Shown: positions 58,791 to 62,506 of the stretch, piece by piece | How the letters are laid out: each line of letters begins with the position of its first letter | How positions within the stretch are numbered: the stretch's first letter is position 1 | Source of the DNA: the human T2T-CHM13v2.0 reference genome, Homo sapiens | DNA length: 64,000 nucleotides | Strand: one strand, 5' to 3' | NCBI RefSeq assembly: GCF_009914755.1 | Contig: NC_060925.1 | Position numbers and translations under genes: made by a program | Notes under the pieces: model-generated | Seen by the model: the letters and a program-made list of their open reading frames with translations, nothing else | What the model was told of the DNA's origin: nothing | The model's database searches: none

Positions 58791-61645
58791 TGCATGCCAG
58801 TATTCCTCTGCATGTTAGGCAATACAAATGCCAGTTACTTATTTGGCCAGTTACTGGCTTGTTTTGATGTTAAGGAAAATAATAGTATTCTATACTAACT
58901 GCAGTAAAATTAAGGGTATTGCTCTAAAAAAGTAAATCAGAAAAGTGGTACACAGATTTAGTATACAGCATATATACTCACTTTAGTCCAGGTCAGATCA
59001 AGTAACTAGTAGAACATCTAAAAAATATATCACATGCAATGTTTTCCACACAGAGAAAAAATATTTTTAGCATTTCAATAACTGTTACTATCCCTAGCAA
59101 ACTAAAAGGTTGATGCTCAGTAGAAACAATAGATTTTATTTAGAAGGGTTGAGGTTCAAGTAAATGTATCCTTATTCCTTTTTTCTTTTTGCAAATTATG
59201 ATGAAAGGCTTTCGCAGTCTTATTCTCATACTGGTCTCCCCAAGTACAAAGTAAAGAAATTAAACAGCCAAACATTAAATTATCTATTTACCTATAGCAT
59301 ACCTGACATCTTTCCATGGATGTACAAAATGCAGAAAACATAGAGCATTGAAGTAGCTCCAGTGTAAAATTTTCAGAGTAAGATTGTTTTTTGTTTTGTT
59401 AAATTTAAAATAAACAATATTTTTTCTTTCGTTTACATGAGAGCATATATTCATATTCCCTTTTGGAAACACATAGAATAAGAAACTGTTTCAGAGAAGG
59501 TGCTGCACTAAAAAGGCATTGTAATGACTGAACATGATTAAACATGGGATAAAAATAGCAGACTGGAAATCAAGTACGGAAGTGAAATGCCTCTTAAATC
59601 AACTGAAGTGAAATTTAGTAAGTTATCTATCTTGAAGGCACTACCTGGCACATACTATGCTTTGAGATGGCTAAAACTAAGAAAAACTGCTAAGTGGGCA
59701 AAATTGACAGACATTCTACTTCATTCTATTGCTAGAAATCTACATTTGGTATCTTGATCTGTGCCCCACGGAGTGTCACACTGTGTTCTAGTCACCCTTG
59801 CAGGGCTTTACGTCCTACTTTTCTCTACCTCTAACCATACATCTCCTTAGGTCTCTGCTTTCCTGTTTTCTAAGGTGACTGTGAGCTAATCTGATCAACT
59901 AAGCTAAGCTAATATGCTCACCAATACAGACACATTAATATGAAGTGTTTTAACCCCTTCCAAGAATATCTTCCCCAATGTCATATTGGACTCTATAGAA
60001 AGCAGTTGTGCCTTTCCTTTCTTGTTAAAATAAATTATCAGTGGTGAGAATTTCATATCAGATAGGTTTGACAACACCATGTCAGATCATGAAAGTATTA
60101 CTGGGCTTGTGGAGACTTTCAGTGTCTCCACAAGAGACACACAGGGGATTTTATGCCTCATAACAATTAATTTCTTGAATTAATTGGAATTGGAAAATGG
60201 GAATGATTATTTAATTTGAATGTAGCATACTTGTTTTCCAATGAATTGTCTTCCCTACCCATGATTTTGCGGATCATAAGTGATTTTCTGTTTGATTTTC
60301 CCTTTTGCATTTATGTTGTAATGCTTTATATATCTTTTCTGAATTTCAGTTCTCTAATGGAGTAAGACAATACTTAGGATTTTTGTTGCCACCTTCAGTT
60401 ATGTTAGTTGTTAATTTTGGGATAGGTCAATTTTTACATTTGGTGGTATCATAATAAGAGTTTTCTTTAAAATTAAATTTTGGGACGCATGAGTGGAATA
60501 CAGGACACATGGTCCTCAAAATGGCTATAACAAATTAGAAAATTGTTGGCAGTCAGCAAATGTTTGTTTTCTTTCTTTTAAATACAAAACATTCATCCTG
60601 ATGCTGTTGAAAATTTTCCTTACTTTATGCCTGACTTCCCCCCACTCCCAGTATCTAGATAAAGTTCATAAGAACTTTGATAGAAAAACTATGATAGAAA
60701 TTTTGATATAAGACACTATAGAACTGATGTAATATTTTCTGTTTCTACCCTACTCAAATAGTTTTGCTTTTTCAACAAATGGGACTGGGCAGGGGAGTTG
60801 TAGGGAGCCTTTTAAACAATTAGTATGTCAGGAATGCATAGCAAATATCAATTTCCTATCTGTTATCCTGTATCATCAGTAAAAAAAAATTTACTCTGGA
60901 AATATGAGCTTTAAAAGTCATAACTGAATTCTTGTTCCTAGTGAAAAGACATCCACCTATCCAAGTTTGCTATTATGACATACAGATATTCTTTTTTTTT
61001 TTTTTTTTTTTTTTTTTAGAAAGAAGGTTGAGACAAGAGCACAACTTTTAATACAAAATAAAAAGAATTAAGTGGCATCTGAGACAAAAAATTAGGGAAC
61101 TAAAATAATTCAAAGGAAAGAGAAAAAGTCTTGGTCATGTTTGCCAAGCTTTGAATATTAGACCTTGCTTTTTTCCCAGAGATTGTCAGTGCACGCTGGT
61201 TGTGCAATATCAACCAGGATTAGGCAGGTGTGGGAGCCACAGAAGCCACTCCACCACACTTTTAAGTCATTTCATTAGAGTCGCCTCAGAAGTCCTGGTG
61301 AGACAATCCTAGGAGTCCTCTTTGGCTGTCTTGCTTGATATTCTCAAGCAAGTCCATTCTGCTAGACGCCTGCATCTGGGTACTCCTCCCTTTTTAACTC
61401 CAGTCCCCACAGGGTCATTTAAGAAAATGTATGCATGTTTCTGATTCATAACTATATTATGATGATTATTCTTATAAACCCTTTTGACGTCTAAAAGCCT
61501 TAGAGCCACTCAACAGTCCTGTTTGGGCCAGTCTCCTGGAATATGAGAAAAGATGAAGAATGGGAGTGTTATGGAGGGCATACGCCCCTCTGATCATCAC
61601 CACAAAGAGTGGAGCCCTTCATGGTCCCAGCTGAAAGCCTGGAGA

Positions 61646-61948
61646 GGCTGCGCGCGGTGGCTCACGCCTGTAATCCCAACGCTTTGAGAGGCCAAGGCAG
61701 GTGGATCACTTGAGCGCAGGAATTCAAGACCAGCCTGGGCAACATGGCAAAACCCCATCTCTACAAAAAGTACAAAAATTAACCGGGCGTGGTGGTGGGT
61801 GCCTGTAGTCCCAGATACTCCGGAGGCTGACGCAGGAGAATCGCTTGAACCTGGGAGGCGCAGGTTGCAGTGAGCCGACATCTCGCCACTGCACTCCAGC
61901 CTGGGGGACAGAATGAGACTCCAACTCAAAAAAAGAAAAAAAGAAAAA
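61646..61948 (+). mobile_element. Older Alu carried inside the transduced segment
   Basis: Full-length Alu with its own TSD gaaagcctgg. Confidence 0.88.
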
Positions 61949-62056
61949 GAAAGCCTGGGGATATTTACCAGGACCCTTCCTCCTTTTCAGGCCCTAGATT
62001 CTAAGATCCTGCTTTGCAGATCTGAAGTGGGACCCAGGAATCTTTAACAAGCTCTA

Positions 62057-62206
62057 AGCCTGCCGAGTGCCTGCGATTGCAGGCACGCGCCGCCACGCCT
62101 GACTGGTTTTGGTGGAGACGGGGTTTCGCTGTGTTGGCCGGGTCTCCAGCCCCTAACCGCGAGTGATCCGCCAGCCTTGGCCTCCCGAGGTGCCGGGATT
62201 GCAGAC
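62057..62206 (+). mobile_element. SVA Alu-like domain fragment
   Basis: gcctgccgagtgcctgcgattgcagg...taaccgcgagtgatccgcc...gaggtgccgggattgcagac, SVA-specific text; 14 intact CpGs. Confidence 0.9.
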
Positions 62207-62506
62207 ATACAGATATTCTTTTACTTGTTCTGGAGAAAATAGAATTTTAGAAATTCATAACAGCCATCTTTTTTAAAGTATCTGTTTATCTTGTAAATAT
62301 ACATATTCCTGTACATATTGTTTGAATTCCATTACAGACATTATTATGAATGGTTCATATATATTTTGATAATGACTTATATAATATCAAATCCACTTAT
62401 AAACATAGTATTTGGGCAGAAATTGTCATGATGAATTAGATGATCTCTAAAGTTTTTTCTAGCTTTAATATGAGGTGATTCTAAGTAGCAGGTACAATGG
62501 ACAATA

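What the first reader, a model, noticed from the sequence alone, without database searches (positions are those of the whole stretch)
60977..62222. Hidden SVA-mediated 3' transduction with twin-priming inversion in PDC intron 1
Seen: an identical 15-19-bp direct repeat gacatacagatattc(tttt) at 60977 and 62204 brackets four parts. These are (i) T26, a poly(A) tail on the minus strand; (ii) a minus-strand ATTAAA at 61047-61052, ~30 nt before that tail; (iii) ~1040 bp of non-SVA DNA including an Alu and a MER5-like piece cut at 62056; and (iv) 150 bp of SVA Alu-like domain oriented opposite to the tail. The reconstructed empty site reads TTTT/AC, close to the L1 endonuclease motif. The TSD shares a 3-nt GAC microhomology with the SVA exactly where twin priming predicts the second primer. 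Established: SVAs are mobilised by L1, frequently transduce 3' flanks and can show 5' inversions. Inference: ~1 kb of another locus was copied here by a source SVA, with VNTR and SINE-R lost at the inversion. Repeat masking would show only a small SVA scrap. The 14 intact CpGs suggest a young, possibly human-specific or polymorphic event.
Basis: partly seen in the sequence, partly recalled or inferred. Interest (0 to 1): 0.9.

Follow-up and report, generated by a model that had tools for sequence, protein, structure and literature searches.

The report
Retro-copied ASIP–SVA transcript in PDC intron
A 1.2-kb insertion in the first intron of the phosducin gene is a reverse-transcribed, half-inverted copy of an aberrant RNA in which upstream exons of the pigmentation gene ASIP were spliced into an SVA retrotransposon on chromosome 20, so it is a DNA fossil of a transcript that has been linked to human skin colour.

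Summary
An exact 19-nt target-site duplication (60977-60995 and 62204-62222), a T-run, a minus-strand ATTAAA and a TTTT/AC nick site bracket 1,208 bp of foreign DNA.

Whole-genome searches trace every piece to one chr20 locus. This is a 1,613-bp full-length SVA lying 23 nt after a 5'UTR exon, 41 kb upstream of ASIP's last exon and on the same strand. It matches the fixed, human-specific "ASIP SVA F" of Kamitaki et al. 2024.

- **3' flank:** only 530 bp (61018-61547) is 3' flank of that SVA, so only this part is a 3' transduction.
- **Spliced exons:** the other ~510 bp, including the Alu and the "MER5-like" piece, is three upstream exons. They are joined at canonical GT-AG sites to each other and to an AG acceptor in the SVA Alu-like domain. 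This is exon trapping, a 5' transduction.
- **Orientation:** the exons and 145 nt of SVA are inverted relative to the tail. A GAC microhomology sits at the right TSD, as twin priming predicts. About 1.5 kb of RNA (the rest of the SVA plus 177 nt of flank) is missing.
- **Sibling:** a second offspring on chr11 carries the whole SVA plus 1.5 kb of the same flank.

All mechanisms are known; I found this instance and its link to ASIP in no paper that I could read. It is probably neutral.

The parts
60977..60995 (.). Left copy of the 19-nt target-site duplication GACATACAGATATTCTTTT; its last four T are the L1 endonuclease primer (nick TTTT/AC)
   Evidence: (family D1), 53: identical to 62204-62222; the 19-mer occurs only twice in the window
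60996..61017 (-). Poly(A) tail of the insertion, read as T22 on the + strand (the whole T-run 60992-61017 is 26)
   Evidence: not templated at the chr20 source, where the homology ends at ...CTTTCT(A) followed by GATTGG
61018..61547 (-). 3' transduction: copy of unique DNA downstream of the chr20 source SVA (C20:35950817-35951345, from 177 nt to about 706 nt after the SVA's TSD). Holds the ATTAAA signal at 61047-61052 (minus strand), 29 nt before the tail
   Evidence: 99% to C20 and C11; 532 columns, 3 mismatches and 2 gap openings against chr20; position relative to the SVA
61548..61548 (.). Internal inversion junction: one A shared by the 5' end of the tail-oriented cDNA and the 5'-most base of the inverted arm
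   Evidence: both alignments include 61548
61548..61607 (+). Inverted arm, first retained exon: 60 nt identical to C20:35923175-35923234. The source has the donor AAG|gtagga. The 5' end is not at an acceptor, so it is either a transcript start or the point where the cDNA stopped
   Evidence: 100%; 60 of 60; flanks
61608..61990 (+). Inverted arm, second exon: 383 nt matching C20:35943510-35943892. It includes a sense Alu (about 61646-61948) with its own 13-nt direct repeats, which was already present in the source. Source acceptor ccctag|, donor CAG|gtacct
   Evidence: 386 columns, 2 mismatches; family D2
61991..62058 (+). Inverted arm, third exon: 68 nt identical to C20:35948929-35948996. Source acceptor ttttcag|G, donor AAG|gtaatg. 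It lies 23 nt upstream of the source SVA and is most likely ASIP 5'UTR exon 2
   Evidence: (100%); exon 2-to-SVA F splicing described in PMC11319198
62059..62203 (+). Inverted arm, SVA Alu-like domain: 145 nt starting exactly after the AG of ctcctgcctcag| in the source SVA. Compared with the source it has 2 substitutions and a 4-nt deletion
62204..62222 (.). Right copy of the TSD. Its first three bases GAC also continue the SVA sequence (GCAGACGG in the source), marking the second-strand priming site

Best explanation
The insert is one L1-mediated retrotransposition of a chimeric, polyadenylated RNA from the ASIP locus on chr20.

**The RNA.** Transcription started upstream in ASIP's 5' region. 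Three non-coding exons were spliced together, and the last one (most likely 5'UTR exon 2) was spliced into the AG acceptor of the Alu-like domain of the sense-oriented SVA F, which sits 23 nt after that exon. The RNA ran through the SVA and past its poly(A) signal, and was cleaved about 706 nt downstream after an ATTAAA. It therefore carried a spliced 5' transduction and a 3' transduction.

**The insertion.** L1 endonuclease nicked TTTT/AC in PDC intron 1. First-strand cDNA was primed on the poly(A) tail and got only 530 nt. After the second nick 19 nt away, the other DNA end (...GTC-3') paired with GAC in the SVA Alu-like region and copied the RNA towards its 5' end. The two cDNAs were joined at a 1-nt overlap. 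The result is an inverted 5' arm and the loss of 1,515-1,518 nt of RNA: the rest of the Alu-like domain, VNTR, SINE-R and 177 nt of flank.

**Shown and inferred.** The origin of every piece, the splice junctions and the L1 hallmarks are shown. Twin priming on a single RNA molecule, the germline setting, and neutrality at PDC are inferred.
For: 1. **Origin.** Genome-wide searches with 61018-61640 and 61949-62075 gave 5 and 3 matches: the window itself, chr20 pieces, and one chr11 copy of the flank. All chr20 pieces lie on one strand, in ascending order within 28 kb (35923175 to 35951345).
2. **Splicing.** At chr20 each of the three exons has canonical sites on the + strand, and the SVA piece starts right after an AG. 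In the window the introns are gone. Read on the other strand these sites would be CT-AC.
3. **Source element.** The chr20 SVA is full length: hexamers to poly(A), TSD AAAAGTTACTC, 1,613 bp. The 530-bp piece is unique DNA downstream of it, ending after ATTAAA.
4. **L1 hallmarks.** 19-nt TSD, 22-26 nt tail and a TTTT/AC site; both flanks are single-copy.
5. **Twin-priming geometry.** The inverted arm abuts the TSD on the side away from the tail, and GAC is shared between the SVA and the TSD.
6. **The source was active.** chr11 holds the whole SVA plus 1.53 kb of the same flank, a poly(A) and its own TSD AGAAAATAAAAGGTTTC.
7. **Identity with the published ASIP SVA F.**
   - ASIP's Agouti-domain exon is at C20:35992157-35992279 (+) and AHCY at 36.004-36.019 Mb (-).
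   - PMC11319198 describes a 1,613-bp (chr20:34222626-34224238) sense SVA F in an early ASIP intron.
   - That paper reports 5'UTR exon 2 splicing into it in 14-16% of junctions in skin, with early polyadenylation downstream.
Against: - **Gap size.** The gap between the two cDNAs is large (about 1.5 kb). One long-read study states that the end of the non-inverted cDNA and the start of the inverted one are 'often in vicinity', and it found 0 of 322 germline SVA insertions with a 5' inversion (PMC12016303). So the twin-priming step is atypical here.
- **One RNA or two.** Nothing proves that both cDNAs came from one RNA molecule.
- **Poly(A) site.** The site used here (about 706 nt after the SVA), and the site of the chr11 copy (about 1.53 kb after it), may not be the one seen in skin. 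The published scan region is centred about 2.1 kb after the SVA.
- **Unannotated exons.** Calling the three exons ASIP exons rests on position, strand and the published description. I had no chr20 annotation. The published gene model does not mention a 383-nt Alu-bearing internal exon.
- **Shared difference.** At one SVA site (alignment column 124) the window and chr11 share T where chr20 has C. This needs either a change at the source or parallel CpG decay.
Confidence: 0.85

Rival explanations
1. One reading: a source SVA read through into about 1 kb of contiguous 3' flank (Alu and MER5 piece included). Only the 150-bp SVA scrap is inverted.
For: 61018-61547 does lie downstream of a full-length SVA. 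The SVA scrap is inverted relative to the tail.
Against: 61548-62058 maps to three separate stretches 0.02-26 kb upstream of that SVA, each bounded by GT-AG sites at the source and joined precisely in the window. They have the orientation of the SVA scrap, not of the tail.
Confidence: 0.02
2. Twin priming on two different RNA molecules from the same locus. One would be a polyadenylated read-through or intronic RNA for the tail arm. The other would be a separate spliced exon-SVA RNA for the inverted arm.
For: The 1.5-kb gap between the arms is unusual for one-molecule twin priming. Both kinds of RNA are made at this locus (PMC11319198).
Against: It needs two RNAs of one locus in the same L1 particle or at the same nick. 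A single chimeric RNA containing both parts is the transcript actually described in skin. The sequence cannot tell the two models apart.
Confidence: 0.07
3. The insertion was originally collinear (exons, SVA, flank, poly(A)). It was later inverted and partly deleted at the DNA level.
For: This would explain the inversion and the loss of 1.5 kb without an atypical twin priming. VNTR DNA is unstable.
Against: One breakpoint would have to fall exactly at the element/TSD boundary and leave both 19-nt TSD copies intact. It would also have to create the GAC overlap predicted for second-strand priming. No inverted repeats flank the arm to drive such an inversion: the only long pair, I1, is Alu against SVA and lies inside the arm.
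Confidence: 0.04
4. Not a retrotransposition: a DNA-level duplication, or capture of chr20 DNA during break repair. Alternatively, chr1 is the source and chr20 the copy.
For: None beyond the sequence similarity.
Against: Introns are present at chr20 and absent here. The poly(A) tail is untemplated, and there is a TSD and an endonuclease site. The chr20 flank continues in unique DNA beyond the shared part.
Confidence: 0.01

Closest known systems
Aberrant ASIP exon 2 - SVA F transcript (Kamitaki et al. 2024, Nat Genet, PMC11319198; I read the Main text, methods section 14, the extended-data legends and methods passages)
   Same: Same locus and element: a 1,613-bp sense SVA F in an early ASIP intron. 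Same event: a 5'UTR exon spliced into an acceptor inside the SVA, followed by polyadenylation in the intron downstream.
   Different: The paper describes RNA in skin and a minigene. It mentions no retro-copied offspring: 0 occurrences of PDC, chr1, chr11, offspring or retrocop. Here the transcript is fixed in DNA at another chromosome. It carries two further upstream exons and a poly(A) site that may differ from the one seen in skin.
SVA 5' transduction by exon trapping, e.g. the MAST2-exon SVA_F1 subfamily (Hancks et al. 2009 and Damert et al. 2009 are recalled and were not readable; reviewed in PMC4859970, passages)
   Same: Transcription starts in an upstream host exon, which is spliced into the SVA Alu-like domain. 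The chimeric RNA is then retrotransposed by L1.
   Different: SVA_F1 kept VNTR and SINE-R and became a propagating subfamily. This copy kept only 145 nt of SVA, is inverted, and cannot propagate as an SVA. I found no further copy of these exons.
SVA 3' transduction and orphan transductions (PMC12350158, section 19; Xing et al. 2006 is recalled and was not readable)
   Same: Read-through of the SVA poly(A) signal, use of a downstream signal, and unique flank carried to a new site. The flank serves as a barcode for the source.
   Different: Here the flank is joined to a spliced 5' transduction rather than to the SVA 3' end. It also starts 177 nt into the flank because the first cDNA was truncated.
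Twin priming of L1 insertions (Ostertag and Kazazian 2001 is recalled and was not readable; described in PMC12016303 and PMC12350158, passages)
   Same: A 5' arm inverted relative to the tail, an intact TSD, and short complementarity between the target overhang and an internal RNA site.
   Different: The template is an SVA/host chimera, not L1. The two cDNAs are 1.5 kb apart on the RNA rather than adjacent. Germline SVA cases were 0 of 322 in one survey.

Membership tests
L1-mediated (TPRT) insertion | Target-site duplication of about 5-25 bp flanking the insert | tested here: met
   19-nt exact repeat; the 19-mer occurs twice in the window; 0 such pairs in 50 shuffles
L1-mediated (TPRT) insertion | Untemplated poly(A) tail at the 3' end, next to a T-rich endonuclease site | tested here: met
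   T22-26 not present at the source; empty site TTTT/AC
SVA 3' transduction | The transduced DNA lies directly downstream of a full-length SVA, on its strand, at the source locus, and ends at a poly(A) signal | tested here: met
   C20:35950817-35951345 lies 177-706 nt after the 1,613-bp SVA, on the same strand, with ATTAAA 29 nt before the tail
SVA 3' transduction | The SVA 3' end (SINE-R) is contiguous with the transduced flank in the offspring | tested here: not met
   SINE-R, VNTR and the first 177 nt of flank are absent. In this respect it resembles an orphan transduction.
SVA exon trapping (spliced 5' transduction) | Upstream host exons joined at their donor to an AG acceptor inside the SVA, with introns removed | tested here: met
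   Three exons with GT-AG sites at chr20. The last donor, AAG|gtaatg, is joined to the sequence after ctcctgcctcag| of the SVA.
Twin-primed insertion | 5' arm inverted relative to the tail within one TSD pair, with microhomology between the TSD end and the RNA at the outer end of the inverted arm | tested here: met
   Arm 61548-62203 is opposite to the tail; GAC is shared at 62204-62206
Twin-primed insertion | Inverted and non-inverted cDNAs adjacent or overlapping on the template RNA | tested here: not met
   1,515-1,518 nt of RNA lie between them. Deletions at the junction are known, but I could not read published size ranges.
Canonical SVA element | Hexamer repeat, Alu-like domain, VNTR, SINE-R and poly(A) in one orientation | tested here: not met
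   Only 145 nt of the Alu-like domain is present
SVA subfamily F | Diagnostic positions against the SVA_A-F consensus sequences | not testable with these tools
   No repeat consensus library is available. The label F is taken from PMC11319198 for the source element.
ASIP processed pseudogene | Copy of the spliced coding mRNA | tested here: not met
   No piece maps to the coding exons. The Agouti-domain exon is at C20:35992157-35992279, and all chr20 matches lie at or before 35951345.

The most novel reading that the evidence does not exclude
This insertion and its chr11 sibling are unreported offspring of the fixed, human-specific ASIP SVA F that has been proposed to have darkened human skin. 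Three things would follow.

1. The window copy is a DNA fossil showing that the exon 2-to-SVA F mis-spliced, prematurely polyadenylated ASIP transcript was already made in germline or early-embryo cells, roughly 2-4 million years ago.
2. That SVA was itself retrotransposition-competent from two kinds of transcript: one started at its own 5' end and one driven by the ASIP promoter.
3. The roughly 2 kb of unique transduced DNA in the two offspring gives a molecular clock and presence/absence markers. These could set a minimum age for the ASIP SVA F insertion, which its discoverers said they could not date.
Probability: 0.55. Interest if true: 0.6.

Novelty: new member of a known kind. Interest (0 to 1): 0.5.

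Why it matters
Each mechanism is textbook for L1 and SVA biology: exon trapping, 3' read-through and twin priming. Finding all three in one germline insertion that has lost almost the whole SVA body is unusual. It also shows how such events escape repeat annotation, since only a scrap of SVA and an Alu are visible.

The more interesting point is the source. The ASIP SVA F is the element proposed to have lowered ASIP output and raised pigmentation early in human evolution. This copy independently records the very mis-splicing on which that model rests. It shows the element was mobile. With the chr11 copy, it offers unique-sequence markers to date the source insertion and to test it in archaic and present-day genomes.

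For PDC itself nothing suggests an effect. The insert puts an ATTAAA and an A-run in the sense of PDC, and ASIP splice sites in the sense of PDC-AS1. No annotated exon of either gene lies in it, according to the hub's gene table.

Tried and rejected
**Papers and notes that were closed or not held**
- The primary papers on SVA exon trapping, 5' transduction groups, 3' transduction and twin priming are not held. These are Hancks 2009, Damert 2009, Hancks and Kazazian 2010, Xing 2006, and Ostertag and Kazazian 2001. I could not check whether their tables already list this insertion or the chr11 one.

**Literature searches**
- I ran five full-text searches. SVA / exon trapping / transduction / twin priming. 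SVA / ASIP / retrotransposon. SVA / ASIP / transduction. SVA / phosducin. SVA / ASIP / source element / chimeric transcript / retrocopy / PDC.
- No listing in these searches, nor any paper I then read, describes this insertion.
- Two of the transduction catalogues have supplementary files held as text (PMC12350158, 1 file; PMC12593883, 2 files). They had 0 occurrences of ASIP or of coordinate prefixes for the source or the insert. This is weak evidence. The insert prefixes rest on my recollection of PDC's GRCh38 position, the files may be cut, and those catalogues list polymorphic events only.
- The main text of PMC9311842 had no chr20 or ASIP entry.

**Ideas considered and dropped**
- A minus-strand chr20 transcript starting antisense in the SVA. 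Dropped because the splice sites are GT-AG only on the + strand.
- chr11 as the source. Dropped because it lacks the three exons and is itself a TSD-flanked insertion.
- A splice at the 5' end of the flank piece. Dropped because there is no AG there, and the shared 531-bp limit of the chr11 and chr20 matches only reflected my query.

**Not possible with these tools**
- Classifying the SVA piece or the 'MER5-like' piece against repeat consensus sequences.
- Any comparison with other primates or other human haplotypes.
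Full report
**1. The observation.**
- GACATACAGATATTCTTTT stands at 60977-60995 and again at 62204-62222. The bases on either side differ.
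- The 19-mer occurs exactly twice in the 64-kb window.
- Fifty block-shuffles of the window gave no exact 19-mer pair 50-3000 nt apart. The real window has 156 such pairs in 104 runs. The 40 rows I saw were Alu-Alu matches or simple and A/T-rich low-complexity repeats.
- The left copy runs into a T-run of 26 (60992-61017). Four of these T can belong to the duplication.
- ATTAAA lies on the minus strand at 61047-61052, 29 nt from the tail.
- The reconstructed empty site reads TTCTTTT/ACTTG.
- Both outer flanks are single-copy in the genome.

This is a bona fide L1-type insertion of 1,208 bp, oriented on the minus strand by its tail.

**2. Where the insert comes from.**
The window's own genome could be searched.
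- The query 61018-61640 gave 5 matches: itself; C20:35950817-35951345 and C11:2423034-2423564 (both 99%, both covering only query positions 1-531); C20:35923175-35923234 (100%, query 531-590); and C20:35943508-35943542 (100%, query 589-623).
- The query 61949-62075 gave 3 matches: itself; C20:35943851-35943893; and C20:35948922-35948996 (both 100%).
- A local blastn completed the map.

| Window | chr20 source | Match |
|---|---|---|
| 61017-61548 | reverse complement of C20:35950817-35951346 | 3 mismatches, 2 gap openings in 532 columns |
| 61548-61607 | C20:35923175-35923234 | 60 of 60 |
| 61606-61991 | C20:35943508-35943893 | 2 mismatches in 386; includes the Alu |
| 61984-62058 | C20:35948922-35948996 | 75 of 75 |
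| 62054-62206 | Alu-like domain of an SVA at C20 | 95.5% |

Read on the window's + strand, everything from 61548 to 62203 is chr20 + strand in ascending order. Only 61018-61547 is chr20 minus.

**3. The chr20 locus.**
Reading C20:35948500-35952000 shows the following in order.
- A 68-nt exon with acceptor ttttcag|G and donor AAG|gtaatg.
- After 23 nt, a full-length SVA: hexamers, Alu-like domain, VNTR, SINE-R and poly(A), flanked by AAAAGTTACTC. It is 1,613 bp long.
- Then unique DNA. The 530-bp piece of the window starts 177 nt after the SVA's TSD. It ends after ATTAAA at ...CTTTCT(A), where chr20 continues GATTGG and the window continues with the tail.

The two further exons also have canonical sites at chr20.
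- The 60-nt piece ends at AAG|gtagga.
- The 383-nt Alu-bearing piece lies between ccctag| and CAG|gtacct.
- The SVA piece in the window begins exactly after the AG of ctcctgcctcag|.

So three introns have been removed and a fourth splice enters the SVA, all in the + sense of chr20. The Alu and its 13-nt direct repeats (family D2) are already present in the chr20 exon. The Alu was therefore carried along, not inserted later.

**4. What the RNA was.**
The template was a spliced chimera: upstream exon, Alu-bearing exon, last 5' exon, then the SVA from its Alu-like acceptor through VNTR, SINE-R and the SVA poly(A) signal, then about 706 nt of flank and a poly(A) tail. From the first retained base it was about 2.7 kb long.
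- It combines a spliced 5' transduction (exon trapping) with a 3' transduction.
- Both are described for SVA. [quoted passage not shown]
- A long-read survey found 218 5' and 188 3' partnered SVA transductions, and 48 orphan transductions counted over L1 and SVA together (PMC12350158, section 19).

**5. How it was inserted.**
The polarity fits twin priming in every respect I could check.
- The + strand carries TTTT/AC. Its T's primed on the poly(A), so the + strand from 60996 rightwards is first-strand cDNA: poly(T), then the complement of the flank.
- The second nick is 19 nt to the left, on the minus strand. It leaves a 3' end ...TGTATGTC attached to the right-hand flank.
- GTC pairs with GAC in the SVA RNA (source GCAGACGG). 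Extension towards the RNA's 5' end gives exactly ...CCGGGATTGCA|GACATACAG at 62193-62212, and then the exons leftwards to 61548.
- The two cDNAs meet at a single shared A (61548).

What does not fit the usual picture is the distance. 1,515-1,518 nt of RNA between the second priming site and the end of the first cDNA are missing. A recent survey says the two ends are 'often in vicinity', and found 5' inversions in 165 of 897 germline L1 insertions but in 0 of 322 germline SVA insertions (PMC12016303, passages). I could not read the original twin-priming paper for the published range of junction deletions.

I therefore hold the retrotransposition of this RNA as near certain and the one-molecule twin-priming step as likely. 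Rivals are two RNAs from the same locus, or a later DNA rearrangement. The latter would have to break exactly at the TSD boundary.

**6. The source is the ASIP SVA F.**
- Pfam searches of the genome place ASIP's Agouti-domain exon at C20:35992157-35992279 (+). This is one of 2 matches; the other is on chr16. AHCY exons lie at C20:36004152-36018697 (-).
- The SVA therefore lies 41 kb upstream of ASIP's last exon, in the same sense.
- Kamitaki et al. 2024 (PMC11319198; I read the Main text, methods section 14, the extended-data legends and methods passages) describe a non-polymorphic, human-specific SVA F at GRCh38 chr20:34222626-34224238. That is 1,613 bp, the same length as here.
- In their account it is sense to ASIP, in an early intron, and near 5'UTR exon 2. 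Exon 2 splices into it in 14-16% of junctions in skin of non-carriers of a second SVA (619 against 4,018 reads in their Fig. 4a).
- These transcripts end at a poly(A) site downstream in the intron.
- The element is absent from panTro6, present in all 1000 Genomes individuals, and present in Neanderthals.
- The second, polymorphic SVA F1 lies 3.9 kb downstream in GRCh38. It is absent from this assembly: the SVA finds no match in the 9 kb downstream.

I could not lift coordinates over, so the identification rests on size, strand, neighbours and the described splicing.

The published poly(A) scan window (chr20:34224584-34228084) is centred about 2.1 kb after the SVA. The window copy ended at about 706 nt and the chr11 copy at about 1.53 kb. 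The fossil transcripts may therefore have used other sites than the one prominent in skin.

**7. A sibling.**
C11:2421052-2424398 holds the whole SVA plus 1.53 kb of the same chr20 flank and a poly(A).
- The SVA starts in the hexamers, after one extra G.
- The chr20 TSD copy is carried along.
- The element is flanked by AGAAAATAAAAGGTTTC.
- It lacks the three exons.
- The first 190 nt of flank exist only at chr20 and chr11 (2 of 2 matches, both 100%).

So the ASIP SVA F gave at least two offspring in this genome. One came from a transcript starting in the SVA and one from an upstream, spliced transcript.

**8. Age.**
Over the 679 columns that all three copies share, the private changes are as follows.

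| Copy | Private changes |
|---|---|
| Window (chr1) | 3 substitutions and a 4-nt deletion |
| chr11 | 4 substitutions |
| chr20 | 1 substitution and a complex 2-nt indel |

- One further site has T in both offspring and C at chr20.
- Window against chr20 overall: 8 substitutions in about 1,205 bp. At least 3 of these are at CpG.
- chr11 against chr20, unique flank: 6 substitutions (3 at CpG) and one indel in about 1,524 bp.
- At 0.5-1 x 10^-9 per site per year (rates recalled, not from a call), these point to an order of 2-4 million years, with wide Poisson error.
- The 14 retained CpGs (15 in the source) therefore do not mean a very recent event.
- Because the template contains a splice into an SVA reported absent from chimpanzee, the insertion should be human-lineage-specific. 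This is an inference, not a test.
- Whether it is fixed could not be tested.

**9. Function.**
I see no sign of one. The insert lies in PDC intron 1 (52247-63840 by the hub's table) and within a PDC-AS1 intron. It offers an ATTAAA and an A-run in PDC's sense, and ASIP-derived splice sites in PDC-AS1's sense. No annotated exon of either gene falls inside it. The most likely status is a neutral fossil.

**10. Novelty.**
All mechanisms are known, so this is a new member of a known kind.
- I found no description of this insertion, or of any offspring of the ASIP SVA F, in five full-text searches.
- The ASIP paper has 0 hits for PDC, chr1, chr11, offspring or retrocop.
- The held supplements of two transduction catalogues also gave nothing.
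- The primary 2006-2010 SVA transduction papers were not readable, so earlier listing in their tables cannot be excluded.

Its value is as independent, DNA-level evidence for the mis-splicing on which the ASIP pigmentation model rests. It also offers a handle for dating that SVA, which its discoverers reported they could not do from the SVA sequence alone (methods section 14).

Noticed in passing
L011 35-3415 (G000 C11:2421034-2424415): Second offspring of the same chr20 SVA. It is a full-length SVA (one extra G before the hexamers) with 1.53 kb of chr20 3' flank and a poly(A), flanked by the 17-nt TSD AGAAAATAAAAGGTTTC. It differs from chr20 at 6 substitutions and 1 indel in about 1,524 bp of flank.
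   Followed up: yes
L011 3668-4105, minus strand (G000 C11, beside the SVA offspring): An intronless, intact 145-aa ORF matching Pfam Ribosomal_L26 (E 6e-41). A T-run lies on its 3' side, and the direct repeat AACAGTTTCTTTT stands at about L011 3468 and 4142. It looks like an RPL26-type processed retrocopy inserted next to the SVA offspring's target site.
   Followed up: partly
L015 (G000 C20:35951000-35960000): There is no SVA-like sequence in the 9 kb downstream of the ASIP SVA F. This assembly therefore lacks the polymorphic SVA F1 insertion that GRCh38 carries 3.9 kb downstream and that is associated with lighter skin in Europeans (PMC11319198).
   Followed up: partly
window 61608-61990 and G000 C20:35943510-35943892: A 383-nt exon made largely of a sense-oriented Alu with its own 13-nt direct repeats was spliced between two ASIP-locus 5' exons. 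The published ASIP gene model, as described in the text I read, does not mention such an internal exon.
   Followed up: partly
L010 2461-2466 against window 61401-61408 and L011: The chr20 source has changed since both offspring were made. There is a complex CTG-to-T change in the flank and a CpG-to-CpA change in the Alu-like domain. One further site (alignment column 124) has T in both offspring and C in the source, which needs parallel CpG decay or a lost source allele.
   Followed up: partly
window 61668-61731 and 62141-62204: A 64-nt inverted repeat, 70% complementary, lies inside the insert. It pairs the exon's sense Alu with the antisense-Alu-derived SVA Alu-like piece. Any transcript through the insert could fold back on itself here.
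   Followed up: no
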